From NCBI GenBank assembly GCA_009602735.1, contig WELA01002297.1, positions 842,773 through 891,078 of the forward strand: a stretch of DNA of 48,306 nucleotides, given 5' to 3'. The notes under the pieces were generated by a model, which worked only from the letters and a program-made list of their open reading frames with translations, searched no databases and was not told where the DNA came from. The position numbers and the translations under genes were made by a program. Shown here piece after piece: positions 1 to 48,306 of this stretch. The first letter of the stretch is position 1. The number at the start of each line of letters is the position of its first letter. Origin of the DNA: Mesotaenium endlicherianum. Its lineage: Eukaryota.

Positions 1-237
1 TCCTTTTGTGTGGTGGGAGCCATACTGAACATGTAACCAGGGCACAAGTTAGTAGGATATCGACCTTTGTCCTAGAAGTTGCAGGAAGGGAGTAAGTTCG
101 TATTAGTATGGTGTATTCGTTCCTGTTTACCTTACAGGGTGATTGCCAGGAGTTGACGTAGTTGCGGTGCGCTAGACATATACGTATGAATGTGTTTTCA
201 GGTGTGTTAAGTGATGTATGGCTGTGCGAGGGCCTTT
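1..237 (-). mobile_element. Fragment D: pol-to-accessory-ORF spacer and first codons (MAPTTQK) of the accessory ORF of the chromovirus family; continues off the left edge
   Basis: Reverse complement aligns with 12,657-12,896 of copy C (cacatcactt..., caccctgtaaggtaaaca, tactaacttgtgccctg, atggctcccacca). ATG is at 23-21. Confidence 0.85.
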
Positions 238-697
238 TGAAATGAATCGACTTACCAAATAGGCGATTAACAATTAATAAAGATCTTCATATCAGCAAGT
301 AATCTTTATGATATTTCCGTTAACTGTTTTAACGGCAAAGGACAATACACTAGCAGTGAATAATACTCGTCAGTCAAATGAGAGTAAACTAGCATCAATA
401 ATGCAAATCAGTAAACTCATACATAAGCAAGGTTAGAAGACAGTTGGTATCAATGGCTTCTTGCCTTGGATTCAGATCTCTCTCAGCAAGCTGTCCAAGA
501 GAGTTGGCCTCATTTCCAAATCCGAACTCGAGAGCAATGTCTAGCGTATGTACATGGAATGAGTTTACTGTTCAACGGTCAGTGCGATGGCACCGCCTAC
601 CCGGGAGTTAACCACGTTGGTAGGACCTCGGTTAACCAAATCCACCGCCATCTCCCATCATCCCGAATCGCCATCCATCATAGGGATGTCATCTGGC
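238..697 (-). mobile_element. LTR E (partial, 3' half) of the A/B/C family inserted into fragment D
   Basis: Starts TGAAATGAATCGACTTACC, the reverse complement of the family LTR end ...GATTCATTTCA. No PBS is adjacent. Truncated by the N gap. Confidence 0.9.
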
Positions 698-807: not shown

Positions 808-1008
808 TTCTAACCTTGCTTATGTATGAGTTTACTGATTTGCATCATTGATGCTAGTTTACTCGCATTTGACTTACGAGTATTATTCCCTGCTAGTGTA
901 TTGTCCTTTGCCGTTAAAACAGTTAACGGAAATATCATAAAGATTACTTGCTGATATAAAGATCTTTATTAATTGTTAATCGCCTATTTGGTAAGTCGAT
1001 TCATTTCA
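808..1008 (+). repeat. 5' LTR of copy A (3' end only)
   Basis: Matches 10,157-10,357 with about 9 differences in 201 nt, ends ...GATTCATTTCA and is followed by the PBS. Confidence 0.92.
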
Positions 1009-1009
1009 G

Positions 1010-1021
1010 TGGTATCGGAGC
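1010..1021 (+). promoter_or_regulatory. Primer binding site, tRNA-iMet type
   Basis: TGGTATCGGAGC 1 nt after the LTR. The canonical plant iMet PBS is TGGTATCAGAGC. Confidence 0.9.
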
Positions 1022-1042: not shown

Positions 1043-2521
1043 ATGGTAAGGACAAGGTCTCAAACTAGCAACTCCCGAGACATGGAGAACCTGGATAACG
1101 AGAATGTCGAAAACCAGGCGGAAAGCCATGTAGCGGGAAACCGTACCTATTCGGAAGCAGTAGCAGATGTTGCAGCTAGGGAGGCTGCAGAGGAGGCAGC
1201 TGCTATTGCCGCAGTCGCAGCTCAGCAAGCTGAGGAGGAGAGAACCAGGCTAGAAGCTGAACAAGTAGCAAAGGCCGCTGAAGATACAGAAAGGAGGGAA
1301 AGACAGCCAGCTGACGAGCGCACTGTCGAGGAACTCATGGCATCAAGGGCCAATGTTCTGAACCCACCTCCTGCTGTACAACTCAATGTACCCCTAGGTC
1401 AAATACGTGACCGGCTGAATGCGGCAGGAATTGCTGCTGCAGGAGCGAGAGGGATTGTTGAGGACACTACTCAGCGAGTAGATGCCAATGCTGCTGCTGC
1501 ATTTGCTAATCTACCACCCCAAAGTGTAGACTTGGGAGCATTGTTCGTTCAGATGCAGTCGCAAATGGCGACCATGTATCAGTCCCAGCAGGAGGACAAA
1601 AGAATCATAATGTCCCTACTGCGGGACAGAGACCAACTGGGGTCTCACACCACTAGTGGTGGTGGCCGAGGGCCTAGTAAGCCCAAGCCGAAACCTCCCC
1701 AGGACTATGATCCTGAGGGAAACAGAAAATATTACCTGATCAAGTTTCTCGCGGATGTTGAGCAGTGGCTGGAGAACTACCCAGAACTGCAAGATTACGA
1801 GAAGGTCAGGCACACCGGTGCGCTACTGAAAGGCAGTGCCGCAGACTGGTGGCTTTACTGGAAGGAAGAGCGTAAGGCTCGGCAACTCGGTGACCCTACG
1901 TGGGTAGAGTTTGTCGAGAAGTTGCATGAGAAGTTTGATGTCATCAACCAGCAGGAGAAAGCTATCTATGCGATGATCTCCCTGACACTGAAGCAGACCA
2001 CTTCAGTTGCTGAGTTTGCTCAAAAGTTCCAAGAGAACATGATGAAGCAGCCAGATTTGCCAGAACGGTATAGGATAGCATACTTCAGGTATGGCTTGAA
2101 ATCCGAGGTCTCTGGTCATTTTGCTGAGAAAAAGTATGAGAAACTGGCTGACTTGATCCAGGATGCTGACGCCTGGGATCAGCAGCAGTTCAATCACAAG
2201 CGCCAGAGTAACGCTTTGGTGTCTAAGATTGTCAAAAAGCCCCACGGTTCCTACAATGCAGTTGAAGGAGACCAGGCTGAGGATAATCAGGGTGATGAAT
2301 ATGAGTATGAGTACAATGCTATTCAGTCTAGAGGTAGAGGTGGTCCCTCTCGAGGTGGCTATGGAAGGGGTGGTGGTAGGACTAAGCCGAGACCAGCCTC
2401 AGCAAAATCCACTTGCTACCATTGTCAGCAGAAAGGCCACTACAGAGAACAGTGTCCGGTCAAGCACCTTCCGAAAGTTCAGAGAAATGACCAGCCTTTA
2501 AAAGACAGCAACAGTCAGTAA
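1043..2521 (+). CDS. gag: Gag polyprotein of copy A (492 aa)
   Basis: Retrotransposon gag core (LKGSAADWW...TWVEFVEKL...[10 protein letters not shown]), RGG tract and CCHC zinc knuckle [14 protein letters not shown]. Confidence 0.93.
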
Positions 2522-2535
2522 TTCAGTCTGACTGT
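2497..2535 (+). promoter_or_regulatory. Predicted -1 ribosomal frameshift signal (gag-pol) of copy A
   Basis: Slippery T_TTA_AAA (2497-2503) in the gag frame, 7-nt spacer, perfect 8-bp stem ACAGTCAG/CTGACTGT (2511-2535). The pol frame is -1 and opens only after the TGA at 2488. Confidence 0.8.
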
Positions 2536-4350
2536 GAGGATGCTATAGATAGTGAGTCGTCACTAGCTGCCCTCGTAGCAGGTATTATGGGTCCTGCTGA
2601 ACTGGATTCACTATGCATGCCTGACAACCAGATAAAGGAGACCATCAGCAATATGGACGTCCAGAGAGTGCACACTCTGGATGCTCTTGTTCCACCTGAT
2701 GTCCAACATTTCTTTGCTACGTCAGGAGAACAATGCGAAAGTCAGGAAAAGACAGTCCCCCCTATCCTACTGCATTGCATGATTGCAGGTAGGAAGGTGA
2801 GGGCATTTGTTGACGGAGGGGCGTCACATACTTTTATCCACAAGGACTTAGTTAAGCGGCTAAGGCTGCCTACTGTCACCCAAGGGAATAGAAAAATATT
2901 CCTTGGAGATGCCTCAAGTATCCCGGGAGGAGTTATAACCAAGCCTATTGAGGTCCAGTTAGGTTCTGGCATTGCAGTTCTAACTGAAACGCTTACATTT
3001 GAGGTACTCAACACTGGCTTTTATGATCTCGTGCTAGGCAGGTCCTGGCTTAATAGACATCAAGCTGAAGTGTGTTGGAGCAGAGGTACAGTTAAAGTGA
3101 GAGGAGCCAGTGATGGGCAGACTGACTTGGCACCCACCAGTGCTCTTCCTCTTGTCCTGTGTGGATGGCAAATGAAGGAAAAGAAGAGGCTTCCAGAAGG
3201 ATGCAAGTTGCTGAATGCAATGGAGTTCGTCAAAAGCTGGAACCAGAAGGAGGACAGAATGTTCTGTCTGCTGCTAAGAGAGGTACCTCTTCAACCTGAA
3301 GAAGTGGTTGAGAAAAAGGTAAGCCCTCCGAAGCACCCTACTGCTGCAAAACTTGTTGCTCAGTACACTGATATATTTAATATGCCTCCAAGACTACTCC
3401 CTAAGAGGGAAGTAGATCATAGGACTGATTTATTACCTGGGAGTCAACCACCTTGGCAACGCACTTATGGCTTGTCTTATGTGGAGAGCGAGGAGTTGAA
3501 AACACAGATTGCAGAGCTTGAGGAAAATGGTTATATTTCTCCCAGTAAATCACCTTACGGCGCACCCATCCTATTTGTTAAGAAAAAGGATGGCAGTATG
3601 CGGATGTGTGTGGATTACAGAGCCCTGAACAGAATTACAGTAAAGAACAAGTATGCTTTACCCAGGATCAAAGACTTGCTTGATACCCTGTCTGGTGCTA
3701 AGGTGTTCAGTAAGATAGATCTCAAGAGTGGTTATCATCAAATCAGAATTGCTGAGGGGGATGAACACAAGACTGCATTCCGTACACGTTATGGACACTA
3801 TGAGTTCAACGTGAAACCATTTGGACTGACTAATGCTCCTGCGACCTTCATGGGTGCTATGAATGACATTTCCAGACCTTATTTGTATAAGTTTGTGCAG
3901 GTTTTCCTGGATGATATTTTAATTTTCTCTAAAGATGAAGCTCAGCACGCTGAACACTTAAAGACAGTCCTGGACACTCTAAGAACGAATCACTTATATG
4001 CTAAAATGAGCAAGTGTGATTTCTTTAAGGAAAGTATTGAATTCTTAGGCCACGTTGTCAGTAAAGAGGGCATCAGTGTGGATCCTAAGAAAGTCCAGAC
4101 CATAAGGGACTGGCCAGTACCACAGTCTGTCTCTGAAGTTAGATCCTTCCTCGGGTTGGCTAACTACTATAGGAGATTTATTGAGAATTATTCCACAAAG
4201 GCCAGTAAACTGACTGACCTTACTAAGAAAGACATCGGGTGTGTGTGGGGGGAAGAGCAGCAGGCTGCCTTCCAGACCCTTAAGGATGCCCTTTGTTCTG
4301 CCCCAGTGCTAGCCGTGTATGACCCCAGCAAACCGGTGCAGGTGGTTACT

Positions 4351-5610
4351 TGAAATGAATCTTGCTTAATCAATATTAATATATTTCATTTAAATATAAA
4401 AGATCAGAGATAGGTGGAAGCGTGTGAAATCAGGGAGCGATCTTTGCCCTTATAATGAATTCCGTTTACTCATCTATAGTCCTTGACTCACTTATCGTAG
4501 TGTGCCATAGTTGCACACGAATACAAGGCACAAGAAAGAGGCGAGCTTGAGGACTAGAGCTTCTCCTTTAGAAAAACCTGACCTCTTGCCTACCAGGCAT
4601 ACAAGCATGTGTAAGCACATACACAACATCAGGGACTGAATAGCAAAGGCGCTCTCATTCAGATGACCATAAAGTAGCTAAAACACATCCCACTGACTTA
4701 GGTGCAAAAACCATGGAATCTGTCTGCTGTGTGACCCCGAAATGTCAGAGGGCATAACTCTGTCAATACTACTCCAAATTGAGCAAACTCAACGGCAACG
4801 GATGCATCTTGACGAGACCTTTCTGAAATGTTCTAGTTTCCTCCAAATGAAGCGCAAACGAAGCAGCCATGGCAATTTCCGTGAAGGCTGGTCATTAGAA
4901 CAAACCCAAAAAGTGCACACATCACTTGCAAGTAGAAATCCGACTGTAAAGCCTACTGTCCAGAATGAGGGACCACGAGATCCCAGCCTGCTATGAACCT
5001 AGTGACCACCTGGTTGACCACGGCGCAAGGTGCGCCGTTTCGTGGGAAACACGTTAAGTTGGGACCCACGGATCTAGGTCTAACGACCATATTAATTGGT
5101 CGGTTGACTGAAGTCCTAATAGTTCAGTTGACTAACGACGGCTCCGCCTACCCAGGAGTTAACCATACTGGTAGGACATCGGTTTACCGAATCTCAGTCG
5201 ACCTTCCGACTTCCAGTATTCTGCGGTCACATGTGCCAATCTATAATAATAATCTAATTGAACGTATCTATCCTCAGCGTACTGAAGCTAAGTATACTGA
5301 CTAATATCAAGCGAGCTTACTATATGTCAACCTACTGATATTACATCCTATATATAACTGATATATGAATCTCAGCAAACTATACTATGATACAAAAGTC
5401 ATCCTGTTGACCTTCTCAACAAAGTCAGCAAACTACACTGTGATACACAAGTCATCCTGCTGACCTTTTTGACAAAGTAAGTAAACTCGCATTACATTGA
5501 CATACATTCATTTAGATGAACTCGCACATGTGAGCATATTGACATAATACTTATTTAAAATTATATATATGTATGCAATTAATTAAATAATGATGAACTG
5601 ACTCATTACA
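4351..5610 (-). mobile_element. Solo LTR (1260 bp) of a related family, inserted in the RNase H of copy A
   Basis: TG...CA ends (TGAAATGAAT...ACTCATTACA) match the A-family termini in reverse. 5-bp TSD TTACT at 4346-4350 and 5611-5615. Confidence 0.92.
5373..5478. repeat. Two ~53-bp tandem repeats inside the solo LTR
   Basis: cagcaaactaYactRtgatacaMaagtcatcctgYtgacctt...acaaagt occurs twice. Confidence 0.8.
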
Positions 5611-7618
5611 TTACTGATGCCTCTGACTTTGCCATGGGTGCTATTTTGTTGCAGCCTGCTGACAAAACCACGAAGGATGGTAAGGTACGGCAGGAGTGGC
5701 ATCCTGTGCTGTATGAGTCTATGAAATTTAATCCAGCGGAGATTAATTACTCAGTGCATGATAAAGAGCTGCTAGCTATCATTCATGTACTCAAACAGTG
5801 GAGAGCATACTTACATGGTAAAGCTTTTAAGGTGATTACAGATCATCTAGCTCTGACTCACTTTCAGAAGAAGTCCAAGCTGTCGAGGAGGGAGAACCGC
5901 TGGAGCCAGATGCTGGAGCAGTTCCAAGTCCAGATCGACTACAAACCAGGGAAGTTGAACCCTGCTGATGCACTCTCTAGAAGACCTGACTTGCAAGAAA
6001 GGAACTTTAGTCAGCATACTGTAGATAAAGTCCTGTGTGCACTCACTTCACTAAAGGTGAAAAAGTCCTTCCTTGAACAACTTAGGAAAGCCTACCTTTC
6101 TGACCCAACATTTGAGCCCAGCCCCACTACTGGTATGTGTCGTGCTACCGCACTCGGGTATAAGCTCAAGGGAGGGGTCTGGGTGACTGAAACCACTTCA
6201 GGCAGGCTGAAGCTGGTCATTCCTAATAATTTGGAAATAAGGTCTCTCTTACTGAGTCAAGCTCATGACAGTCTCCTGGGTGGACATTTGGGGCAGGCCA
6301 AAACTGTTGGCAAACTGGCAAAACATTATCATTGGGAGGGGTTACCCCGGGAGGTCTTGAAATATGTCAAGTCCTGTGACCAGTGTCAGAGAAATAAGTC
6401 TCGGCACACACCACCCGGAGGTCTCTTGCAACCGCTACCCATCCCAGCGGGACGCTGGGAAACTATATCCATGGACTGGGTGGTCTCACTACCAAGAACT
6501 GCCAACGGGCATGATTCAATACTGGTAGTCGTGGATAAACTGACAAAAATGGTCATTTTTATCCCCACAACTGTCAAAGTGACTGCACTCGAAACAGCGA
6601 GACAGTTTTACAACCATGTAGTATGCCAACATGGGCTCCCTTCTAATATCATCTCAGACAGAGACTCAAAATTCACCTCTAAGTTCTGGAGAGCTTTAAT
6701 GGGGTTAATGGGAGTCAAACAGCTGCTCAGCACAGCAAACCACCCTCAGACTGATGGGCAGACTGAAAGAACTAACCGAGTTCTGCAGGAGGTGCTGAGA
6801 GCATATATTAACCAAAAACAAGATAATTGGGATGACCTGTTGCCTCAAATTCAGTTTGCGGTCAACAGTGCGGTGCACGCGTCAACGGGCAAAACTCCTT
6901 TTGAACTCAGCCTGGGTAGAGTCCCTAAGTCTCCTCTAGATGTGCTAGGGGAATCTTTAACTCACCCTGAAGGGATTGACAACCCGGTCTCCCTCCAGTT
7001 AACTCAGGAGTTTGCTGACACCCTGTCAGAAGTCCAACGAAACTTGCACACGGCCCAAGAAAACCAACAAAAATACGCTAATCAACACCGTCGGGAACTG
7101 ACATTTTCCAAGGGGGATTTAGTCAAACTGCATTCTCAGCACCTGTACCTCCCTGGTGTGGCCAAGAAAAAGCTTGGCCCTGTCTGGGTCGGTCCATATT
7201 CGGTGGTCCGACGTGTCGGTCAGAATGCTTACAAACTGAATATGTCCGCTGACTACAAGGGTCACCCGGTCTTTAATGTCTCCTTCCTGGAACCATACAT
7301 CAAAGGTGATACACTGTTCACAGGTCGGTTACCGGTCCAACCGGGACCGGTCCCCGCTGTCCGGGACGACGACACTAAGGAATATGAGGTCGATGAGATT
7401 TTAGACGCTCGCTCGGTCCGTCGATCGTCTAAATATGTCATGAAGTACCTCATCCGATGGAAGGGTTACGATGCCTCTGGGGACACTTGGGAATTTAAAG
7501 ATCAGCTGACCCATGCCAAAGGGGCGTTGAAACGGTTCCACCTTCGGGCGGCTGGGGCACCTCCCTAACAGTCATTTCAGTTGACACGGGAAGGTGACAG
7601 GAGGTCCTGTCTCCATAT

Positions 7619-7690
7619 AAGTTGGAGGGAGATGTGACAGTTAGTGACAGTAGTGACAAGCAGCCCACCTTTAAATTTAAGTTGGAGGGA
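7619..7690 (+). other. Two internal PPT-like copies just downstream of the pol stop
   Basis: AAGTTGGAGGGA at 7619-7630 (followed by GA-TGT) and at 7679-7690, identical to the true PPT at 9594. Confidence 0.75.
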
Positions 7691-7892
7691 GTGGTAGTCT
7701 CTGATCACCATATTACCCACTCAACCTGCGCTCACACTCAATTGCTCTCCAACTCAAATTTTCCTTATATTCGCTCACACCAGGTATTCCACTCTAGGAA
7801 CTCTCCCGATCGCGTCCCTCTTCATCAAGGGCACTCAGTAGCGGCAAAATAGCATGACTTCACTAGCTGCATAGTGTTTTTGATTGAGCAGG

Positions 7893-9490
7893 ATGACTCA
7901 AAAGTCGGAACTCAAGAGGAAGCGAAGGGCGGAAGAGGCACATGCAGAATACTTGCAGTTCCGTGGAGACATCGAATCATCTTCCATCTCCGCTCGGGAA
8001 TCACAACGACTCCAACAACAGCGGGAGGCACAGAAGAAGAAGGAGGAGGAGGAACAGGCCAGACTGAGGCAGGAAGAACTGGACAGAAAAGCTGCAGAGG
8101 AGGCTAAGAAAGCAGAGGAGGAGAGGCAAGCTGAGGAGAAGCGGAAGCAGCAGGCTGAAGAAGAAGAACAGAGGAGAATCAGCAGCTACCGCTACACGGT
8201 GCTGGGCAAGGGCTTTGATCTAATGGAGGAGGCCTTCAAGTATGCTCAGAGAAGTCGCAGTGAGTCGCAGAAGAAAATCCTCCAGTAAGAAGGGGAGACA
8301 TCCGAAAACTTCGACAAGTATATAGAGGTCGGCACAGGGCTCCTCCTCTACCACGATTACGCCAGGATGGTAGGATATACCATCGGAGAGGCCAAGGCAA
8401 TGGCCCAGGTGAACGAAGCAGGAGCTGTCTCGATTCCTGGTATCTGGGGGGCAGATAGGGTCATCAGGATGATCCCCATGGACGCGGACAGCTTCAAGGA
8501 CTCAACACCCCACAACAGGTTCAAGGCCATGTACAATGAGGTGGAGAGGAGGAGCTGGGAATTCTTGGCCAGAGAAACCAGTCAGCTGGACTTTGCAGGG
8601 CACTGGTACCCTTGTACTCTCAGAAAGACAGACGCTGCCTTCTTCCAAAAGCCCACTGATTGGCGGTGGATGACCATCAACATGAGGGACCAGCAGAATG
8701 ACAGGGCGACGGATGAGGATTTCCTGACAGACCTAAACGGGAACATAGTATTGCCCCCTCACATTGCGGCTTGGGATCCAAGATTGGATGGAGTCAGAGA
8801 CTGCATGAGCCAAGAGATGCAGGGGGACAGAAGCAGGGCCCGAGAGTCATTCTCCAAAGGGAAGCACGCTTATGCCAAATGGGCAAGTAAGCAGGGGGAA
8901 AAGGACCTCTATGCGGTCCGGACTCAGCAGCCCCCACCAGCACCCAAAAGGGGAAGGTCAGTAGGATATTCTTTTTCTCGGGAGGAGCTGGAGCAGCGGA
9001 CAGAGGAGACCCCAGAAGTCTCAGAGGAACCCGGGGACGGCGAGGAGGCGGAGTCGGAGGAAGACGAGGAGGAAGGCGAGGAGGAGGACACTAGCCCCGC
9101 CGTGATCCTGACACCTGCCACATCCCCTGTAAGGGAGAAGACGGGGTGGGCCCCGCCGCAACTCGCTCAAGAGGAGGATATCACTTGGCTGGGGACTGCC
9201 AGCGGACAGAGCCCATCTCCAGGCAAGGAGACCCAGTCGGACAGGGCAGACAGGAGGGCTGCTCGGGAGATAGCCAGAGGTCTGCCAGCATCTCCCTCGC
9301 AGAGAGGGCATGTACCCTTGGCTCATGTCATGCAACATCCTTCCGCGAGAAGGCTGCCTCCCTTCAGTTTCAGACTGTGCAGGAGGAAACAGCCCAGTTA
9401 CTGCGTTCTCCGCCGGGTCCTTACACGGAACCCCCTTCTCTAACAGGCTTCAAAAGACACCAAGACAGGAGGAGGTCTGGCTCCCCCTGA
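7893..9490 (+). pseudogene. Accessory third ORF of copy A (unknown nuclear-type protein, ~530 aa; one in-frame stop at 8286 and a frameshift near 9350)
   Basis: ORFs 7884-8288 and 8367-9443 share one frame (ILQ*EG vs LLQKEG in C). Colinear protein homology with the ORF of copy C. Confidence 0.8.
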
Positions 9491-9593
9491 GCATAGGGCC
9501 TCAGGGACATCTCCCTCCTAAGGGCAGCAGGCTGGGGATAAGAGGGACAGCACGCTGTTATTAGTAAGAGTGTTGTTGAGACGACAACATGAT

Positions 9594-9606
9594 AAGTTGG
9601 AGGGAT
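9594..9606 (+). other. Polypurine tract of copy A
   Basis: AAGTTGGAGGGAT immediately precedes the TGTAATGAATC LTR start. Confidence 0.88.
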
Positions 9607-10357
9607 TGTAATGAATCAGTATACTGGTCGATATAATATTCATTTAAATAATATAGTTAAATAAGTTCAGCCTGCTGAACTCTAGTTAACAATCAGTCTG
9701 CTGGACTTTATACTTAACATCAGTTTAATGACTTGGCCGGAAGTAGCAGGCTGAGGTCACCTTAAGTCAGCTTGCTGACACATTCTTTGACAGCCAGCTG
9801 ACTTCCGTACTCGGTAGCAGCGAACTGCCTCGATATGCATCTAAGTGTGGTATGCTAGATGAATGGCCAGATGACATCCCTATGATGGATGGCGATTCGG
9901 GATGATGGGAGATGGCGGTGGATTTGGTTAACCGAGGTCCTACCAACGTGGTTAACTCCCGGGTAGGCGGTGCCATCGCACTGACCGTTGAACAGTAAAC
10001 TCATTCCATGTACATATGCTAGGCATTGCTCTCGAGTTCGGCATTCGNCGCTAGACATTGCTCTCGAGTTCGGATTCGGAAATGAGGCCAACTCTCTTGG
10101 ACAGCTTGCTGAGAGAGATCTGAATCCAAGGCAAGAAGCCATTGATACGCACTGTCTTCTAACCTTGCTTATGTATGAGTTTACTGATTTGCATTATTGA
10201 TGCTAGCTTACTCTCATTTGACTGACGAGTATTATTCACTGCTAGTGTATTGTCCTTTGCCGTTAAAACAGTTAACGAAAATATCATAAAGATTACTTGC
10301 TGATTTGAAGATCTTTATTAATTGTTAATCGCCTATTTGGTAAGTCGATTCATATCA
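9607..10357 (+). repeat. 3' LTR of copy A (possibly a chimeric join at n10,048)
   Basis: TGTAATGAATC...GATTCATATCA with terminal inverted repeats; matches the other family LTRs. Confidence 0.88.
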
Positions 10358-11622
10358 CATACTCACATCCATCACCCTGATCATCCTCAGCCTGGTCTCC
10401 TTCAATAGCATTGTAGGAAGCGTGGGGCTTTTTGACAATCTTAGACAACAAAGCATTACTTTGGCGCTTGTGATTGAACTGCTGCTGATCCCAGGCATCA
10501 GCATACTGGATCAAGTCAGCCAGTTTCTCATACTTCTTTTCAGCAAAATGACCAGACTTCGGATTTCAAGCCATACCTGAAGTATGCTATCCTATACCTT
10601 TCTGGCAAGTCTAGCTGTTTCATCATATTCTCCTGGAACTTTTGAGCAAACTCAGCAACTGAAGTGGTCTACTACAGTGTCAACGAGATCATTGCATAGA
10701 TAGTTTTCTCCTGCTGGTTGATGACATCAAACTTCTCATGCAACTTCTCGACAAACTCTACCCACGTAGGGTCACCGAGTTGCTGAGCCTTACGCTCTCC
10801 TTTCCAGTAAAGCCACCAGTCTGCGGCAATGCCTTTCAGTAGCGCACGGGTGTGCCTGACCTTCTCGTAATCTTGCAGTTCTGGATAGTTCTCCAGCCAC
10901 TGCTCAACATCCGCAAGAAACTTGATCAGGTAATATTTTCAGTTTCCCTCAGGATCATAATCCTGGGGAGGTTTCGGCTTGGGCTTACTAGGCCCTCAAC
11001 CACCACCACTAGTGGTTTGAGACCCCAGTTGGTCTCTGTCCCGCAGTAGAGACATTATGATTCTTTTGTCCTCCTGTTGGGACTGATACATGGTCGCCAT
11101 TTGCGACTGCATTTGAACGAACAATGCTCCCAAGTCTACACTCTGGGGTGGTAGTCTAGCAAATGCAGCAGCAGCATTGGCATCTACTCGCTGAGTAGTG
11201 TCCTCAACAGTCCCTCTCGCTCCTGCAGCAACAATTCCTGCCGCATTCAGCCGGTCACGTATTTGACCTAGGGGTACATTGAGTTGTACAGCAGGAGGTG
11301 GGTTCGGATAACTGGCCCTAGATGCCATAAATTCTTCAACCGTGCGCTCGTCAGCGGGCTGTCCTTCCCTCCTTTCTGTATCTTCAGCATCTTTTGCTAA
11401 TTGTTCAGCTTCTAATCTGGCTCTCTCCTCCTCAGCTTGCTGTGCTGCGACTGCGGCCATAGCAGCTTGTTCATCTGCAGCCTCTCTAGCTGCAGTATCT
11501 ACCACTGCTTCAGAATAGGTACGGGTTCCCGCTACATGGCTTTCCGCCTGGTTTTCGACGATCTCGTTATCCTGGTTCTCCATGTCTCGGGAGTTGCTAG
11601 TTTGAGACCTTGTGCTTACCAT
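10358..11622 (-). pseudogene. gag: Truncated gag of copy B
   Basis: [16 protein letters not shown]... matches A gag. It has a CGA>TGA stop at 10,996, small deletions, and ends at the LTR junction. Confidence 0.9.
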
Positions 11623-12376
11623 ACAAAGAAGACTGTGATAACAGCTCCGATACCACTGAAATGAATCAACTTACCAAATAGGCAATTACCAATTAATAAA
11701 GATCTTTATATCAGCAAGTAATCTTTATGGTATTTTTCGTCAACTGGTTAAGCGGCAAAGGACAACACACGAGCAGGGAACAATACTCGTAAGTCAAATG
11801 CGAGTAAACGAGCATCAATGATGCAATCAGTAAACTTATACATAAGCAAGGTTAGAAGACAGTGCGTATCAATGGCTTCTCGCCTTGGATTCAGATCTCT
11901 CTCAGTAAGTCGTACAAGAGAGTTGGCCTCGTTTCCGAATGCCGAACTCGAGAGCAATGCCTAGCATATGTACATGGAATGAGTTTACTGGTTAACGGTC
12001 AGTGCGATGGCATCGCCTACCCGGGAGTTAACCACGTTGGTAGGACCTCGGTTAACCAAATCCACCGCCATCTCCCATCATCCCGAATCGTCATCCATCA
12101 TAGGGATGTCATCTGGCCATTCATCTAGCATACCACACTTAGATGCATATCGAGGCAGTTCGCTGCTACCAAGTACGGAAGTCAGCTGGCTGTCAAAGAA
12201 TGTGTCAGCAAGCTGACTTAAGTGGACTTCAGCCTGCTGCTTCCTGCTGAGTCATTAAACTGATATTGAATGCAAAGTCCAGCAGATTGATTATCAACTA
12301 GAGTTTAGTAGGCTGAACTTAATTAACTATTATATTTAAATGAATATTATATCTACTAATATACTGATTCATCACA
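10358..12376 (-). mobile_element. Copy B: 5' LTR (11,657-12,376), PBS (11,644-11,655) and gag, cut by the copy A LTR
   Basis: Reverse-complement LTR TGTGATGAATC...TTCATTTCA, PBS TGGTATCGGAGC, and gag highly similar to that of A. Confidence 0.92.
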
Positions 12377-15300
12377 CGATGCCTCTGGGAACACTTGGGA
12401 ATTTAAAGACCAGCTGATCAATGCCAAAGGGGCGTTGAAACGATTCCACCTTCGGGCGGCTAGGGCACCTCCCTAACTGTCATTTCAGTTGACATGGAAA
12501 AGTGACAGAAGGTCCTGTCTCCATTTAAGTTGGAGGGGAAATGTGCCAGTGTATGGCAATTAGTTTGCGAGAATAGGACAGTTATTGACAGTAAAAGGTC
12601 AGTATAGAGACAAATATAACAACCAGACCCACATGAAGCAAAGATGGCGGAATGAAAAAGGGACTCGCACATCAACACATCACTTACCTCACCCTGCACA
12701 CACATTCATCCGTTTGGTTTTCAGCGCATTACAGCTCCGTTAACTCCTAGTAACCACCCTGTAAGGTAAACAAGAGCAAACCTACCATAATAATACAAGC
12801 TTAATTCTCTGTCTGCAACTCCTTTGATAAAGATCGAGATTTTACTAACTTGTGCCCTGCTTACATGTGCAAGATGGCTCCCACCATACAAAAGGAAGAC
12901 AGAAAGCGCAAGGCAAAAGAAGCCAGGAGGACAATGGAGCAATACCAGAAAGAGTTGGCGGCAACGTTCCTCACCAGGAGAGAACAAGAAAGGGTCCGCA
13001 GACAACAAGAGGCGGCGGAGGAAGCACAGAGGAAGAAGGAGCAGGAGGCGGAAAACCTCACGAAAGCGGAAGAGGAGAGATAGAAGAAATAACAAGAAGA
13101 AGAGGCGCCAGCAGAGGAGGAGAGAAGCAAGAAGGCTGAAGCTAAGAAGCAGAAGAGCTTGGCCACTTACAGATATACTGTGGTGGGTGGCCAAACCTTT
13201 GATAACCTGAAGGAAGCAGTACTGGCAGCCCAGGAGATCAACAAGTTGGAACAGACAACACTTCTACAGAAAGAAGGAGCTGAAGCACTGGATAGGTACA
13301 TCGAGACACACACTGGTGTGGTCCTCTGCGAAGGTTAAGCCAAGATGGTGAGCTATACAGCAGAGCAAGCTCGGTACCTTGCAGCTGATTCGGAGAACAA
13401 GCCAGTTCCAGTTTTTGGAATAGTGGGAGATTAAAGACTCATCAGAATGGTGAGCATGCAGCCCGATAGCTTTAAGAATACGCTATTTTACCTGACACTG
13501 CTGCCAGCTTACAATGAGGTTGGGCGAAGGAGTTGGGAGTACCTGGCTAGGGAAACAGGGCAACAGATGTTCTCTCCCCACTGGTTTCCTTATAAGCTGA
13601 AAAAGGCTAAGCATGGGCCACAGTACTACCAGCAGCCTACAGACGGGAGGTGGATGACCGTCACTAACAAGAAGCAGGAGTGTGACTGGGCCCAACCAAA
13701 TGACGTCCACTATGGGCTAAACGGCAACCTCATGCAACCACCTCACATTGCCCCTTGGGACCCCACACTGAATGGATGCTTGAGTAATATATATGTGGAG
13801 ACCAGAGAGCACAGGAGGAGGGGGAGAGACTATTTCTCTAAAGGGAAGCATGCCTTTGTCAAATGGGCGAAAAATGCAGGCCGGATAGATATCAGCAGGC
13901 TGAAGGCCAAGCAACCCCCAGCCCGTCTTAAGAAAGTGCGATCAGTAGATTTTTCCATGTCTACCAAGGAGCAGGATGACTTAGTGGACGAGACCCCAAC
14001 CCTCTCAAAGGAGGAAGATGAGGAGGATGAGAAAGAAGAAAAAGGCAGATGAGAAGCATCAGGAGTTGGTACTCAAGAGACCCAGGGGCAGGCAAAAGGA
14101 GGGACTCCAAGGGCGCAAAGATCACGTGTATGAAATGTGATCCCCGTCATGGAGGCAACATGGCCCCACACTCGTTCTCCCAGCCCACCTGCCCAAGCAG
14201 GGGACGAAGCTGATCTGACTGTTCTGGGCAGCAGAGAAAGGCAGAAATCCCCAGAGGACAGGGGTACCAAAAGAACAACACGCGGAGTAGCCAGTGGTAT
14301 GCTGGCCACCCCCTTCAATCAGGGACATGTGCCTCTTGCCAATGTATTTCAGCATCCTACCAAAATGCCTGTTCATGTGGGTATCAACATCCAGGTGGTT
14401 GAAGAGCAGGCTACAATCCTTCGTTCACCTCGGAGCTCAACTTTAGAGCAAACCGGGTTCTTTAGAAGGCCAGCTGACAGACCTAGAGGGCTGTCGAGAT
14501 CTAGGTCCAAATGTCAATTCCCTAATCCTGAAGCCCCAGGAACAACCCCTTAAACATCAAGACCATCCTCCAGTCAAGCCTTGCTGGAGGTCTCTCTGTT
14601 TGCATCCCACAACGGAAGTGGATTGAGGGTGGAGGTGATAGTTCACAGTCACGAGTGATCCCCACAGCTAGGCAACAGTGTTGAAGCAAAAGGCAGGCTT
14701 TGAAGGGGGTAATTTTATTAGTTCCCTGATTAAGTATTTCTATAGTTTAATTTTGTCGAAGCGACAACAATCTAAGTTGGAGGGATTGTAATGAATCGCT
14801 ATATTGGTAGATATAATATTTCAAATACAGTAGTGAATTAAGTTCAACCTGCTGAAATTTAGTCAACATTCAATCTGCTAGACTCTATATAATTATCAGT
14901 TTAATGACTCAGCCGAGAGCAGCAGATTACAGTTAACTTAAGTCAGCTTGCTGACACATTCTTTGACAGCCAGCTGACTTCCTTACTCAGTAGCAGCGAA
15001 CTGCCTAGACATGCATCTAAGTGTGATATGTTAGATGAATGGCCAGATGACATTCTTATGATGGATGACAATTCGGGATGATGGGAGATGGTGGTGGATT
15101 TGGTTAACCGTGGTCCTGCCAATTCCCGGGTAGGCGGTGCCATCGCACTTGCCATTGAACAGTAAACTCATTCCATGTACATATGCTAGGTATTGCTCTC
15201 AAGGTCGGCATTTGGAAACGAGGCCAACTCTTTTGTACAGCTTACTAAAAGACATCTGAATCCAAGGCGAGAAGCCATTGATATGCACTGTCTTCTAGCC

Positions 15301-15492
15301 TTGCTTATGTATGAGTTTACTGATTGCATTATTGATGCTAGTTTTTTTGCATTTGAGTTGCGAGTATTGTCCACTACTAGTCTATTGTCTTCTGCTGTTT
15401 AATCAATTAACAGAAAATACCAAGAAGATTACTGCTGATATGAAGATCTTCATTAATTGTTAATAGCCTATTTGGTAAGTCGATTCATTTCA
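12377..15492 (+). mobile_element. Copy C, 3' part: end of chromodomain, internal PPT, degenerate accessory ORF, PPT (14,774-14,786) and 3' LTR (14,787-15,492)
   Basis: 12,377-12,537 matches 7470-7630 of A. LTR TGTAATGAATC...GATTCATTTCA. Confidence 0.9.
12874..14553 (+). pseudogene. Accessory third ORF of copy C (several stops and frameshifts)
   Basis: MAPTIQKEDRKRKAK coiled-coil, then YRYTV, YNEVGRRSWEYLARET, PTDGRWMT, LNGN..PPHIAPWDP, FSKGKHA and GHVPLANVFQHP, all shared with A. Confidence 0.8.
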
Positions 15493-16401: not shown

Positions 16402-16705
16402 GAANNNNNNNNNNNNNNNNNNNNNNNNNNNNNNNNNNNNNNNNNNNNNNNNNNNNNNNNNNNNNNNNNNNNNNNNNNNNNNNNNNNNNNNNNNNNNNNN
16501 NNNNNNNNNNNNNNNNNNNNNNNNNNNNNNNNNNNNNNNNNNNNNNNNNNNNNNNNNNNNNNNNNNNNNNNNNNNNNNNNNNNNNNNNNNNNNNNNNNNN
16601 NNNNNNNNNNNNNNNNNNNNNNNNNNNNNNNNNNNNNNNNNNNNNNNNNNNNNNNNNNNNNNNNNNNNNNNNNNNNNNNNNNNNNNNNNNNNNNNNNNNN
16701 NNNNN

Positions 16706-20816: not shown

Positions 20817-23800
20817 ATGGCCCCCATGAGATATGAACCCTCTCGCGGGGCAATAGTCTTCATGAATGCTGAGGGCACAGCATACCAGGGACATGATCAC
20901 AAGCATGGTCCTCTTGGCCTCCAGCTTGAACCGACTCCCTTAGTGTTGGAAAACTTCAAAGAGCTAGCTACATCTGGCCCGATCTGGGTAAGTGCTTCAA
21001 TAAGCTCTGATTTCCTTCTCCTTCTTCTTGTGCCAGCTGTGTAGTGATTTGAGTTATTATATATTAGTTCGCATATATTTTAATGTTTTCAAATATATTT
21101 GGAGTAGTATTGTGTGGAGTCAAGTGTGAATAGGTACTCTAGTAACTTGGTTCATGTCCTTTGAACCTTCCAAGGCATTTTCGAAGTTAGAGGAAAGACC
21201 TAGAAGAACTCCATGTGGCAAAAGTCAGATGTGCCATTTTTAGGTCAAAAGGACATGTGTACATTATTCTAGAAAGAGGTGGCAAGTTTTGGGATGTGTT
21301 GGGTGCCAACACATCAACATACACCTTCCTAGAAATTACTTATGTAGCAAGTATATAAACAAGAGCTAGAACATAGAAAGACATTCCAGAATCACTCTTG
21401 TACTTGCCAAAATCCAGAAATATATTAACTTTCAAGAAGCCATCTCTCTTTCAAGAAGCTACCACTTGTGTTCAAAGATCCTTGTCTTGAATAGATAAAG
21501 TATTCTGTTTTACTAAGTACTTTATCTATCTGTTTCACTACAGTGGTATCGGAGCTAGGCACTTTGGTAGCACAAGAAGATGGCCGATCCTCAAGACCAA
21601 CAGCAAGCTTTCGAAGGAAGCCCTTCCTCTCCAAGACACCCTCCTCCAGCGCCGATGGGAGAGCCCACTCAAGAAAATCTGCAACAACAAGAAGCACCAC
21701 AAGGAGGAGCACACCCTCCTCCAGCGTCGATGGGAGAGCCTACTCAAGGAAATCTGCAACAACAAGAAGCACCACAAGGAGGAGCACCGTCAAATCCCGT
21801 GGCAGCCGCTATAGCAAAGTTGACCCCACCACAAGGAGTTCCCGCAAATGAGTGGGCAGCCTTCCTAATGACCGTCCACAACCAAGTGGGCTTGGCCACC
21901 TATGAAGCAACCGTGCAAGCGTCAAGAGAAGCTATGGCTGCCATGGTTGCCCCTATTGCGAGCAATGCTCAAAATCCAGCCCCGGCTCAAGCGCCTCCAC
22001 AAGAGCCAACGAGAGCAAGGAAACTCATCAAGCCCGGCAAACCCGACACTTTCAACCCCGGGAAAGGTGCCAACCTGAATTTATGGCTCTACCAAGTGGA
22101 GACGTACCTCGCGTTCCTTGAAGTACCCGAGGAGGACTACGTTCCCTTTGCCGTTACCTTACTTAGAGGAGCAGCAACATCATGGTGGCGTAACTATCAA
22201 GCGGCTATATATCAAGCTATGGCGCACCCCATGCTCGGCCAAGAGCCCCCACCATCATATGCAAGATGGGCAGATTTTCGTGAGGCCCTCAAGAAGCAAT
22301 TCATGCCCATCAATGCGGAGAAGATTGCCCGAGGAAAGCTCCACCATCTCAAGCAAACGACGTCCGTTCAAGAGTATACATCCAGATTTCACGCCCTCAC
22401 TCTTGAGATCCCCAACATGTCTCTCGAGGAGAAGATTGACCGTTACATCTTTGGCCTCAAACCCAAGGTGGCAAAGGAAGTGGAGTTACGCGACTTGACG
22501 GACTTCTCAAAGATCATTGAAGTGGCCCAAAAGGTGGATACCTTGGATTTCAAGCACTCCGTGCCTTCATCTTCACGGGTACCGACGACGCGGGTGTACG
22601 CAGCCCCTTCCACATCCGAATCTGGACCCACACCCATGGAAATCGGAGTTATTAAAAGGGACCCCGCGGCTGCCCGGAAGAGTGGAAGACCCTCCAATGA
22701 CACTTATGATGCAAGAAACCAGCAAGGAGTGAAAGCAAGACTCTCCCCGGCTGAAAAAGAAGCTCTCATGACGGCTGGACTATGCTTCTATTGCAAGGAA
22801 AAGGGCCATCGTGCACTTTCATGCCCCAAAAAGTTGTCAAAAAACGGACAGCGCCGGTAGGCCAGGAGCCTACCACCCCAAGACCCACTTCACGAGAAGG
22901 CAACACGCCAAGTGAGGTGGAGACCCCCGTTGAAGACGACGTTCCAGCCCCAATGAGTTTGAGAGGTTACCTTGGAGGAGAGAAGGTCCACATCTTGGTG
23001 GATAGCGGAGCTCAAGGCAACTTCATTGCTGCAGATTTTGCCACCAAGCACGGTATTACTATGCGAACTCTTGACCACGACGAGGAGATTATGATGCCCG
23101 ATGGATTCTCCTATACTACCCCTTCCAAGAAGACGTACCCCTTGGCACTCTCTATCAAGTCCTTCAAGGATAGAGTAGTGTTCTCCCCCATGCAATTGGG
23201 CAAGTACGACGTCATCCTAGGGACGCCTTGGTTGACCAAGCACAACCCCCAAGTTGATTGGAGGACCGGTACTATCAAGATCAAGAATGACATCACTTCA
23301 AGAATCTGTATTTTGCGCGCAATCCAGAATATCCAGACCCAAGACATCCAGAAGCCGGCACACGAGATACTATTGTCCGCCCTCCAACTCAAGAGACTTG
23401 TGAGGAAGGGACACGAGCTTCTTTTGGCCTTGATCACGCCAAAAGACATCAAGAAAGACATCGAGAGTCAAGAAGGCAGCCCCGTTCCCAAGGAGATACA
23501 AGAAGTCTTTGAGGACTACAAAGAAGTGTTCTCCCCGGAATTGCCCAAGGGCCTACCCCCCAAAAGATTCGTAGACCACAAGATAGAGTTGGAGCCCGGA
23601 AGCAAGCCCATCTCTCGGCCTACGTTCAAAATGTCATACACGGAGCTAGACGAAGTCAAGAAGCAAATCAAGGAGCTACTGGAGCATGGCTTCATTCGAC
23701 CTAGCAAGTCGCCATTTGGAGCCCCGGTGCTATTTGTCAAGAAGAAAGATGGTACCTTGAGGATGTGTGTGGACTATCGCGCCCTCAACAAGATCACCAT

Positions 23801-37600: not shown

Positions 37601-38258
37601 CAAGACGGGCTCTGCCGCAGCAGGGCCAGGTGGTGGTAGCAGCAAGGACAACCATGGCAGAGGCATCCCGAAGGCGTCCTTGAAGAGGGCCGCGACTGCC
37701 AAGAAGCGCTTTCAGCCACCTCCTGCCAAGAGGGCCAGAAACGAGAGATGCACCGCGGCGCGAGCACACCTCGTCATGTATGAAGCGGGGGGGGAGAAGA
37801 GGTTTGTGACGCTCGCGGAAGAGGCGGAGGCAGTCGCAGCCGCTGCTGCACGGGAGGCGGCACAACAAGCGGAGGCAGCGGCCATGGCGGCGGCCATGGC
37901 GGCTTCCATTGCAGAGGCCGAGGCTGCCGCTGGCCTGACAAGTGTCCCTGACGGTGCGAAGGGCCTGATCACTGAAGAGGCTGCTGGCATGCTGCCAGCA
38001 TATGCCTTCCAGGAGGGGGAGTTTGCCGCTAGCGAGGGAACCGGAGGTGCTGCCACGCGGATGCAGGGCTTGGCAGAAGATCTGTCGGAAGAGGAATGGG
38101 ATGGACTGCTGATGACCGATGGACAGGTCGTCGTGCCAGCTGGCATGGGGGCTGCAGAAGCCCAAGAGGACTATTTCCTGATGAATGACGTGTCTGATGT
38201 AACTAATTTCTCTTTTTTCTCTGACTTGTCTCCTCTCGTGGACCTGGCCTTCCTGTGA
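34658..38258 (+). CDS. TRF2/HOY1 PH-like domain protein (plant PLGLTLRKS family); exons 34,658-35,074, 35,417-35,590, 36,001-36,098, 36,230-36,422, 36,768-36,882, 37,210-38,258
   Basis: Family motifs PPLGLTLRKSGSFLELL, ITIGAW, IVAKFQYAQRKLIWEVLEEGLKSKMEV..DI, EDFT.G and RHLLTFPEGSLGKHFDQLRTSDPRL. All introns are GT..AG and phases are consistent. Confidence 0.8.
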
Positions 38259-46959: not shown

Positions 46960-47951
46960 CTAGCCCATGAGAATGTTGCGCACTTGCGCGGCAATGTCGG
47001 CCTGCACATGCTCGTCCGCGACGGGCTGCCCCTCCCGGTCCAGCAGCAGAAAGCGGTACACCTCGTACTGCCGCCCGTCCAGCTGGTGCCGCGTGATGTC
47101 CCCCTGCGCCCGACCGCAAGCCACCACAGCGTACGTGTCAGCTCATCTTACAGCCGGTGAACACACACACAGACACACACACACACACACCACATGCATG
47201 CGTATGTACGTGCAGCGGACGACCCTGGGCCTGACTTCAAGCCTGTGGCCCTTCGCATGTGGCGCCTTCAACAGCCCGCAGAAGTCCTGCACCGCGCCAG
47301 TGCCTGCTTGCACACAGGCCCACACACGCCTGGGCCCTCTCCCTCGACGGAAGCGCCTCTAGCAATGACGCTCGTCCGTCGGCTGCGAGCTGCGTTCCCA
47401 GAGCAGAGTGCGGCACTCACAGCCTAGTACAGAGCAGGGGCCCTCCGGCCACACACATGCTCGTGCAATCTGGCCCAAGGGGGGACTGGAGGGGCAAGAA
47501 GCTCTTGCTGCCTACTGCACTCCGGAGCTCCTGGACGCAGTACAACAACCTTCTCAGCATGCCTCCCCATCATTCACCTACAGGCAAACAAGCCCCGACC
47601 CTCTGAGCGTCACCAGGCAGGGAGTGTTTGAAGTCAGCAGAGGAAGGGGGGNGGGGGGTAAGCAGCCACCTTGAAAATCTGGAGGCCGAGCTGCGCGAGG
47701 ACGTACGTCACGTCGTACAGCACGCGCGGCCGGCCGCGGCCGCAGCGCTCGACAGGTGTCGAGACGAGGAGCTCCGAGTCGGGGCCGGTAGTGGCCACGC
47801 CCACGCCGATGGGTTCCTCCAGCTCCGTGCGCAGGCGTCGCACCAGCTCGCGCTGCTTCCTCTCGTCGTACAGCTTGCGGCCCTTGGCGTCCTGGATGAA
47901 GATGTTCAGGAAGCACACGCCGCCCTCCGTTGTGATCCTCCCGTAGCCCAC
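46960..47951 (-). CDS. Last two exons (47,951-47,670 and 47,103-46,960) of an ACT-domain repeat protein, ACR9/ACR10-like; gene continues off the right edge
   Basis: YGR..., GPDSELLVSTPVERCGRGRPRVLYDVT..L..LGLQIF and RQYEVYRFLL...VRNILMG* match the ACR9/10 C-terminus. Both exons are phase 0 with GT..AG introns. Confidence 0.88.
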
Positions 47952-48306
47952 CTGGGCAAAGGGAGCCCGGCAAGTGGCACGCGAGTCAGTAACACACTCA
48001 GTGCAGATGTGCATACAGCGCGTGCGTACGCAGACCGGATGTGTGTGTACGTGCGCAGATGACACGTGTCAAGCACACGTGCCCCGTCAGCACGAGGCGA
48101 GCCTGGGCTGACTTATTTTCTATGATACACGTGCGTGCACATGTGTCTTTAACAAAACACGCACTCCTTTTTGCATGAGGCGAGCCAGGGCGGCAGCGCT
48201 CCCTGTCCATATGGCTGCTAGGTTAAGTAAAGGAGGAAGGATGGCCTGCATTTGCACAGGCAAAACCCACCAGAAATGAGCGCCCCATCTCCCTCCTCCC
48301 CCCCCC

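What the first reader, a model, noticed from the sequence alone, without database searches (positions are those of the whole stretch)
7470..15492. Accessory cassette is far more diverged than its flanks (hypervariable or swapped module)
Seen: A and C are roughly 90% identical in DNA over the pol end and first PPT (7470-7630 vs 12,377-12,537) and clearly alignable across the LTR. Similarity collapses right after the internal PPT. The best protein blocks are only 21/32 and 26/51 identical, and the spacer DNA is unalignable by eye. D carries the C-type version. Inference: at least two cassette alleles circulate in one family, by template-switch exchange or an arms race.
Basis: partly seen in the sequence, partly recalled or inferred. 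Interest (0 to 1): 0.75.

Follow-up and report, generated by a model that had tools for sequence, protein, structure and literature searches.

The report
Retrotransposon with two swappable accessory genes
A jumping gene in a freshwater alga carries one of two very old, very different versions of an extra gene of unknown function on an almost identical backbone, most likely because related copies exchanged this segment by recombination.

Summary
Copies A and C of a chromodomain Ty3/gypsy retrotransposon (host: a zygnematophyte alga) are 92% identical at the pol end and 87% in the LTR. The ~2-kb cassette between an internal and the terminal polypurine tract (PPT) encodes proteins only 38% identical.

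The divergence is not fast protein evolution. Synonymous sites are saturated (pS 0.74 against 0.085 at the pol end), dN/dS is 0.13-0.28, and transversions exceed transitions. These are two ancient, purifying-selected versions on a young shared backbone.

Public contigs show the split family-wide. Depth drops 3-4-fold at the internal PPT. In run X9, A-type (22-26) plus C-like (61-68) contig depths roughly add up to a pol contig (92.6) identical to A. Contigs bridge both junctions, so a chimera is unlikely.

Both types have a branch point and splice acceptor just before the ATG, suggesting an env-style spliced mRNA; RNA reads did not show one. The protein has no membrane segment and no homologue; it is likely nuclear.

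Best reading: exchange by template switching. Extra ORFs with an extra PPT are known (Athila4, Calypso), so this is a new variant.

The parts
808..1008 (+). 3' end of the 5' LTR of element A (the rest lies in an assembly gap, 698-807); donor-like GGTAAGT at 990
   Evidence: 192 of 201 identical to A's 3' LTR
1010..1021 (+). primer-binding site TGGTATCGGAGC (tRNA-Met type; label recalled)
   Evidence: the same 12-mer in elements B and F
1043..2521 (+). gag of element A
   Evidence: Pfam Ty3_capsid, Retrotrans_gag, zf-CCHC
2491..7568 (+). pol of element A (PR, RT, RH, IN, chromodomain), split by a solo-LTR insert at 4351-5610
   Evidence: Pfam; target-site duplication TTACT
7569..7629 (+). conserved 61-nt non-coding stretch ending in internal PPT1 (7619-7629); left boundary of the cassette
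   Evidence: depth step and loose ends at 7629
7630..7892 (+). A-type 5' spacer, with a further PPT copy (7679) and a predicted branch point (7863) and splice acceptor (7889-7891)
   Evidence: family reads carry the canonical branch-point letter (table 3)
7893..9443 (+). A-type extra ORF (517 codons as read): charged N-terminus with a basic KRKRR motif, ~270-aa aromatic-rich core, acidic and S/P-rich tail. Broken in this copy by one stop (8286-8288) and a ~40-nt deletion near 9345
   Evidence: both breaks are private to this copy (tables 3 and 8)
9573..9606 (+). right boundary of the cassette and terminal PPT2 (9594-9604)
9607..10357 (+). 3' LTR of element A
10358..12376 (-). element B: 5' LTR (12376-11657), PBS and truncated gag, lying between A and C
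   Evidence: gag 1216 of 1299 (94%) to A; LTR 92%
12377..12537 (+). element C: pol end (chromodomain tail) and internal PPT1 (12527)
   Evidence: 92% to A; pS 0.085 over 32 codons
12538..12873 (+). C-type 5' spacer, with predicted branch point CTAAC (12845) and acceptor AG before the ATG
   Evidence: junction to pol bridged by X1 record 1
12874..14553 (+). C-type extra ORF (560 codons in one frame, 6 internal stops)
   Evidence: the stop at 14050 is private to this copy (table 3)
14753..15492 (+). terminal PPT2 (14774) and 3' LTR of element C (14787-15492)
1..237 (-). element D: C-like spacer, predicted branch point (52), acceptor CAG and start of the extra ORF; cut by LTR E (238-697, minus) and by the window edge
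   Evidence: 79% to C

Best explanation
This chromovirus family carries, between an internal and the terminal polypurine tract, one of two anciently diverged versions of a third gene on a nearly identical pol/LTR backbone, and the two were most likely brought together by recombination between related elements. SHOWN: the mosaic (saturated synonymous sites inside, 8-13% divergence outside); purifying selection on the protein; both types are multi-copy and follow near-identical pol; boundaries at PPT1 and about 20 nt before PPT2. INFERRED: (1) Reverse transcriptase switched templates between co-packaged RNAs of two lineages. Crossovers need homology, so they fall in pol and the LTR and keep homogenising them, while the cassette is too diverged to recombine inside; its edges therefore sit where homology ends. 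(2) The gene is likely expressed like a retroviral env, from an RNA spliced from a donor at the LTR end or leader to the acceptor just before its ATG. (3) PPT1 likely acts as a second plus-strand primer. (4) The protein is likely a nuclear helper of the element (chromatin or anti-silencing cofactor, about 30%), not an envelope protein.
For: Core pS 0.743 (bootstrap 0.66-0.82) against 0.085 (0-0.22) at the pol end; dN 0.47, dS about 3.5. Identity by codon position is 0.60/0.66/0.43 in the core and 0.91/0.97/0.94 at the pol end. Fourfold sites over the ORF: 26 of 74 the same (random 25%), 29 transversions and 19 transitions. Depth falls at 7620: mean 889k to 274k in X1 and 141 to 32 in X9; 20 X1 contigs have loose ends at 7629. 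X9 single contigs: pol 92.6 (0 of 212 differences to A), A cassette 22-26, C-like cassette 61-68, LTR 187.5. Junctions are bridged by X9 record 12 (7588-7761) and X1 record 1 (12430-12746). A branch-point/acceptor/ATG motif sits at all 3 extra-ORF starts; about 0.0017 per ATG by chance. Maximum 19-residue hydropathy is 0.88 and 0.99. Pairwise recombination within an LTR family was shown for an Arabidopsis element (PMC5668417, abstract).
Against: Only 32 codons of pol are shared between A and C in the window, and no trees across copies were possible. The tool states that contig depth is no copy number, and the two lays used different thresholds (85 and 80). The neat sum is approximate: summed LTR depth in X9 averages 472, not 184. 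A pol-end contig in X9 (depth 44.6) differs from C at 17 of 133 sites while A differs at 10 of 132, so pol ends next to the cassette are not fully homogenised. X1 may be the source of the window's assembly. No spliced joint or loose end at the acceptor appears among the rows shown for X23 and X24 or X24; the donors lay outside the stretch and 759 loose-end rows were not shown. The splice motif was defined after seeing the three sites, and C and D are not independent. The protein's function rests on composition only.
Confidence: 0.7

Rival explanations
1. Same mosaic, but made by DNA-level recombination or gene conversion between integrated copies rather than by template switching in the particle.
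For: Copies are densely nested here (A, B, C, D and E within 15.5 kb). LTR E is 98.5% identical to A's 3' LTR, while A's own two LTRs are 95.5% identical over 201 nt.
Against: Both types were later amplified to many copies, so any DNA-level event still had to pass through retrotransposition. Template switching is the documented route (PMC5668417, abstract). Sequence alone cannot separate the two.
Confidence: 0.1
2. Arms race: the cassette evolved very fast under positive selection after A and C split.
For: Inside the C-like group the cassette is a little more diverged than the LTR: C vs D spacer 79%, C vs the abundant X9 contig 85% (155 of 1037), LTRs 87-93%. A third spacer form follows PPT1 in X9 and X6.
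Against: Positive selection raises dN, not dS. Here dS is saturated, dN/dS is 0.13-0.28 and the spacers are equally diverged. About 8% of C's difference is post-insertion decay (6 stops, CI 3-18%). Transversions exceed transitions, which also argues against deamination-type hypermutation.
Confidence: 0.07
3. Two old sister families with no exchange, whose pol end and LTR are simply under very strong constraint.
For: The pol end borders cis-elements, and the window offers only 32 shared codons.
Against: 705 non-coding LTR columns are 87% identical, while a related family's solo LTR shares only a 58-nt core. An integrase contig identical to A over 212 nt has about the combined depth of both cassette types in X9.
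Confidence: 0.07
4. C is an assembly chimera of an A-like pol end and an unrelated family's cassette.
For: The window has assembly gaps (698-807, 16405-16705). C's own spacer (12556-12668) has no depth in X9 or X6 and little in X1 (3,373), and no listed piece spans all of C.
Against: X1 record 1, a different copy (58 differences), bridges 12430-12746. In X9 and X6 the pol end and PPT1 run into another non-A spacer, and C-like ORF contigs of 875-1037 nt are abundant. The depth step at PPT1 does not depend on C.
Confidence: 0.04

Closest known systems
Athila4 and Calypso (non-chromovirus Ty3/gypsy of seed plants with an env-like third ORF)
   Same: Sense third ORF between pol and the 3' LTR; one extra PPT in the linker; predicted splice acceptor (second-hand, passages of PMC2829016; the original paper is not held).
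   Different: This element is a chromovirus in an alga. Its protein has no predicted membrane segment and no Pfam match. Two homologous but saturated versions share one backbone.
SIRE/Sirevirus (Ty1/copia) 3' extra ORFs
   Same: Very heterogeneous 3' extra ORFs (19 groups, PMC6317226 passages) and multiple PPTs (PMC2829016).
   Different: Copia, not gypsy. 56 of 63 extra PPTs lie after the ENV gene, whereas here the extra copies lie before the ORF. That heterogeneity is described across a lineage, not on a 92%-identical backbone.
ORF3 modules of bdelloid rotifer LTR retrotransposons
   Same: Modular third ORFs shared between elements, said to be typically expressed from spliced messages (PMC5408684 passages).
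   Different: Those ORF3s are described as family-specific and several have known folds (GDSL, DEDDy, env). Here two versions of one unknown gene sit within one family.
Intra-family recombination during LTR retrotransposon bursts in Arabidopsis
   Same: Pairwise recombination between family members, as in retroviruses (PMC5668417, abstract).
   Different: That work concerns close family members. Here the exchanged block is saturated at synonymous sites.
Chromoviruses of non-seed plants (Chlamyvir, Tcn1)
   Same: Ty3/gypsy domain order with a C-terminal chromodomain bearing the aromatic cage, as in algae, mosses and club-mosses (PMC6317226 section 9).
   Different: The closest database pol is only about 43% identical. 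It has a tRNA-type PBS, unlike most Tcn1. That section names extra ORFs as typical of the non-chromovirus OTA group and does not mention them for chromoviruses.

Membership tests
Ty3/gypsy chromovirus | gag, then PR-RT-RH-IN order between LTRs, with PBS and PPT | tested here: met
   Pfam; LTRs, PBS and PPT
Ty3/gypsy chromovirus | chromodomain at the integrase C-terminus | tested here: met
   PF00385, E 4.7e-09; Y...W..Y cage residues visible (cage positions recalled)
Chlamyvir or Tcn1 clade | groups with reference elements in an RT/RH/IN tree | tested here: inconclusive
   No named reference elements were available. In a FastTree of 120 sequences (2 of 122 dropped for short cover), A falls in a 17-member group (support 0.97) with element F and a Closterium protein, on long branches
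Tcn1 clade | mostly self-priming, no tRNA PBS | tested here: not met
   tRNA-type PBS at 1010-1021, against PMC6317226 section 9
env-like third ORF (Athila/Calypso/SIRE type) | sense ORF between pol and the 3' LTR | tested here: met
env-like third ORF (Athila/Calypso/SIRE type) | transmembrane segment(s) | tested here: not met
   maximum Kyte-Doolittle 19-mer 0.88 (A) and 0.99 (C)
env-like third ORF (Athila/Calypso/SIRE type) | expression from a spliced subgenomic RNA | tested here: inconclusive
   acceptor motif at 3 of 3 starts; no spliced read among the rows shown
env-like third ORF (Athila/Calypso/SIRE type) | sequence homology to known extra-ORF domains | tested here: not met
   no Pfam family reached its cut-off; no true hit
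one retrotransposon family (A with C) | more than 80% nucleotide identity in pol and LTR | tested here: met
   92% at the pol end and 87% in the LTR; criterion as quoted in PMC3350952; only 162 nt of the pol end are available for C
central (internal) PPT as in Ty1, HIV-1, EVADE | primes plus-strand DNA and makes a flap | not testable with these tools
   only sequence identity to the terminal PPT is shown; function described in PMC7197481 passages

The most novel reading that the evidence does not exclude
The PPT-bounded cassette is a built-in exchangeable module. Plus-strand synthesis primed at PPT1 yields a cassette-sized strand that can be displaced onto another element's template, so the family keeps trading long-lived versions of a nuclear counter-silencing protein of new fold, and selection holds several versions in balance, much as phages swap anti-defence modules.
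Probability: 0.12. Interest if true: 0.8.

Novelty: new variant of a known kind. Interest (0 to 1): 0.5.

Why it matters
Extra ORFs of plant LTR retrotransposons are known to be very heterogeneous, and the field's reference survey leaves open whether they evolve fast or are acquired from different sources (PMC6317226 passages). This family separates the two: the variation is old, under purifying selection, and moved onto one backbone. It offers a natural swap experiment (same pol and LTR, different third gene) in an alga from the sister group of land plants. It also adds a protein family with no detectable homologue. The pol / extra PPT / splice acceptor / third ORF layout of Athila4 and Calypso appears here in a chromovirus without a membrane protein, which suggests the layout is a general way to carry accessory genes and not a sign of an envelope.

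Tried and rejected
No whole genome is held, so no trees over all copies and no site-model selection tests.

Homologue searches for the cassette protein were blank:
- 0 of 624 candidates.
- 2 hits in 1.84 billion representatives, both unrelated repeat proteins with 7-8 matched stretches, rejected.
- 0 of 586 metagenome and 0 of 91 viral pattern matches confirmed.
- 0 metagenome matches to the PPT1 motif.
- 0 PDB sequences; no usable Atlas hit.
- Pfam gave only sub-threshold matches.

AlphaFold2 on the 2-sequence alignment gave pLDDT 35, so no fold search was run.

The idea that the spacer is a relic LTR found no support: no similarity to LTR A, the solo LTR or LTR F (z -0.4 to 2.5). No TATA box was found in the spacers.

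Expression: no RNA holder was listed. In 2 polyA runs (6% and 12% read) the A cassette had a few reads from 1-2 starts in X24, and the C cassette had none over 12556-14476 in X24. This is too little to judge, and reads may come from any copy.

X9 and X6 carry other organism labels but give nearly the same contigs, so I did not count them as evidence of trans-species polymorphism. Searches used wrong start positions (out of frame) and were replaced.

Literature searches listed no paper on this family or on saturated third-ORF versions within one family. The library lacks most subscription journals, I opened no supplements, and the REXdb extra-ORF tables (supplements of PMC6317226) may bear on novelty.
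Full report
SETTING. The first 15.5 kb of the window is a nest of one LTR retrotransposon family. Element A has gag, PR, RT, RH, IN and a chromodomain, a PBS at 1010-1021 and a 3' LTR at 9607-10357. A solo LTR of a related family splits its pol at 4351-5610, with target-site duplication TTACT. B is an inverted LTR plus gag fragment. C is a pol end, cassette and LTR. D is a minus-strand fragment at the window edge. A host exon at 47664-47960 matches an ACT-domain protein labelled jgi/Mesen1 at 99%. I recall that label as the zygnematophyte alga Mesotaenium endlicherianum.

OBSERVATION. A and C are 149 of 162 identical over the pol end and PPT1, and 616 of 705 in the LTR. Similarity ends by 7641/12550 and resumes at 9573/14753. 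Between them each carries one long ORF: 7893-9443 in A (1 stop) and 12874-14553 in C (6 stops, one frame). The proteins align end to end at 192 of 502 residues, E 4e-93, so the cassettes are homologous and collinear, not unrelated cargo. The 5' spacers are weakly alignable (70 of 101, z 8.2) and the 3' spacers are not. D is C-like at 79%. The PPT 11-mer occurs at 7619, 7679, 9594, 12527 and 14774, against 0.024 expected.

OLD VERSIONS, NOT FAST PROTEIN EVOLUTION. Over 264 core codons, pS is 0.743 (bootstrap 0.66-0.82) and pN 0.349. Over 32 pol-end codons, pS is 0.085 (0-0.22); gag of A vs B gives 0.136. dN/dS is 0.13, 0.28 and 0.18 for the core, N-terminal and C-terminal parts, from saturated and therefore rough dS values. 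Fourfold sites differ at 30 of 45 in the core and 1 of 16 at the pol end (p 2.6e-5). Over the ORF to 9344, 26 of 74 fourfold sites are the same (random 25%), with 29 transversions and 19 transitions. Positive selection or deamination-type hypermutation would not give this. C's six stops imply about 8% decay since insertion (CI 3-18%). That could account for much of the 8-13% flank difference, so the backbones were even closer at insertion (inference).

THE SPLIT IS FAMILY-WIDE. I laid 5 of the 24 listed runs. On A, mean depth falls at 7620 from 889k to 274k in X1 and from 141 to 32 in X9, and 20 X1 contigs leave the sequence at 7629. In X9, pol contigs have depth 92.6 (0 of 212 differences to A), 76.3 (1 of 224) and 64.2 (10 of 277). 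A-cassette contigs have depth 22-26 (52 differences in 1,486 nt, summed from table 8). C-like contigs have depth 61-68 (155 of 1,037 different from C), and one LTR contig has 187.5. So A-type plus C-like is about pol, and LTR is about twice pol. X6 has C-like contigs at about 78. X9 record 12 bridges A's PPT1 junction and X1 record 1 bridges C's. A's stop at 8286, A's ~40-nt deletion near 9345 and C's stop at 14050 are private to these copies; the other stops of C were not among the rows shown.

LIMITS OF THE READ EVIDENCE. The tool warns that depth is no copy number, and the thresholds differed (85 and 80). Summed LTR depth in X9 averages 472. X1 may be the assembly's source. C's own spacer is rare: none in X9 or X6, where PPT1 runs into a third spacer. 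The X9 loose end before 12723 matches D at 22 of 25 and C at 17 of 25 (compared by eye), so the abundant C-like form is probably D's subtype. A pol-end contig of X9 (depth 44.6) differs from C at 17 of 133 sites, against 10 of 132 for A. Pol next to the cassette therefore has at least two haplotypes, which fits crossovers a little upstream with linkage near the cassette but is not proven.

HOW THE GENE IS LIKELY EXPRESSED. All three extra-ORF starts have a branch-point-like pentamer 29-30 nt upstream and an AG 0-1 nt before the ATG. A loose pattern finds 4 sites in the window, these 3 and 1 other; shuffles give 2.9 per window, about 0.0017 per ATG. The pattern was written after seeing the sites, and C and D are related. 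A's copy departs from the canonical pentamer at 7866, where nearly all X1 and X9 depth and all 5 plus-mate RNA reads carry the canonical letter. A perfect donor-like GGTAAGT lies near the end of all 5 LTR ends in the window, and a second donor-like site overlaps the gag start. Splicing is thus predicted, not shown: no such joint appears in the RNA rows shown, and cassette reads are very few.

THE PROTEIN. It has a charged N-terminus (about 50% K/R/D/E) with a basic motif, a 270-residue aromatic-rich core that is 45% identical between types, and an acidic, S/P/T-rich tail. It has no membrane segment. No homologue was found, and the fold prediction failed (pLDDT 35). A nuclear helper role is my inference from composition, at about 30% for a chromatin or anti-silencing function. 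Element F (21040-27719), an intact chromovirus of another family, has no ORF of 120 codons or more between pol and its LTR, and tblastn finds no other cassette copy in the window. The gene is therefore not needed by all chromoviruses of this host.

MECHANISM. Best reading (0.7): template switching between co-packaged RNAs placed a cassette from a long-separated lineage on this backbone. Continued crossovers in pol and LTR keep the backbone uniform, while the cassette cannot recombine inside. The boundaries coincide with the PPTs because these are the last conserved cis-elements. Which type is the newcomer is open. A-type has higher GC3 (0.65, against 0.53 for C and 0.45-0.51 for pol) and looks more uniform, a weak hint that it came in. 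Rivals are DNA-level recombination (0.10), arms race (0.07), constrained flanks without exchange (0.07) and chimera (0.04).

COMPARISON. Third ORFs between pol and the 3' LTR are common in plant LTR elements (PMC7264820, part 1 of 3 read; PMC6317226, passages and section 9; PMC11963269, abstract). An extra PPT and a predicted splice acceptor are reported for Athila4 and Calypso (PMC2829016, passages; original not held). Modular ORF3s are known in rotifers (PMC5408684, passages). Intra-family recombination is shown in Arabidopsis (PMC5668417, abstract), and internal PPTs in EVADE, Ty1 and HIV-1 (PMC7197481, passages). Fungal-like gypsy families occur in Spirogyra (PMC13519894, passages). PMC2864245 and PMC3350952 were seen as passages. 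The element works like an Athila-type third-ORF element but fails the env-like test (no membrane segment, no homology). It is a chromovirus of undetermined clade. Ten library searches listed nothing on this family or on saturated third-ORF versions within one family; supplements were not opened. Earlier notes of this scan describe several other gypsy extra ORFs, which lowers the surprise of the gene itself.

VERDICT. Real, multi-copy and best explained by module exchange. New variant of a known kind; interest 0.5.

Noticed in passing
window 21040-27719 (+): Element F: an intact chromovirus of another family (gag 21571-22860, pol 22755-26447, LTR copies 98.8% identical over 503 nt, TSD AGCTG, same PBS). 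It has no extra ORF, but a ~750-nt non-coding 3' region, and is probably a young insertion.
   Followed up: partly
window 4351-5610 (-): 1,260-nt solo LTR of a related family inside A's RNase H region, TSD TTACT. It shares only a 58-nt core (49 of 58) with A's LTR, a candidate conserved cis-element.
   Followed up: partly
window 7679-7689: A third perfect PPT copy, 60 nt behind PPT1, inside the A-type spacer and absent from C. Only the PPT and 2 further letters are repeated, which suggests selection for the motif.
   Followed up: partly
window 238-697 (-) and 808-1008 (+): LTR E is 98.5% identical to A's 3' LTR, more than A's own 5' LTR end (95.5%). The two lie either side of a 110-N gap, so the local scaffold order may be wrong or collapsed.
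   Followed up: no
window 10357/10358 and 12376/12377: B's gag is cut exactly at A's LTR end, and C's pol is cut exactly at B's LTR start, as if A inserted into B and B into C. The other ends are not in view.
   Followed up: partly
window 6400-7860 and 9572-10040: In polyA runs X23 and X24, first mates lie mostly on + over pol and mostly on - over the LTR start. If the libraries are stranded in the usual way, that means antisense RNA over pol and sense RNA from the LTR.
   Followed up: no
window 28221-29135 and 36767-38258: Two related GC-rich stretches with alanine-rich open frames (272 and 372 codons, no Pfam match) sharing a motif; possibly another repeat family.
   Followed up: no
window 47664-47960 (-) and about 35410-35595 (+): Host exons: ACR9-like ACT-domain gene (PF24926, PF24931) and a TRF2/HOY1 PH-like domain (PF24818).
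   Followed up: partly
window 21636-21785: 75-nt tandem duplication (96%) in the N-terminus of element F gag.
   Followed up: no
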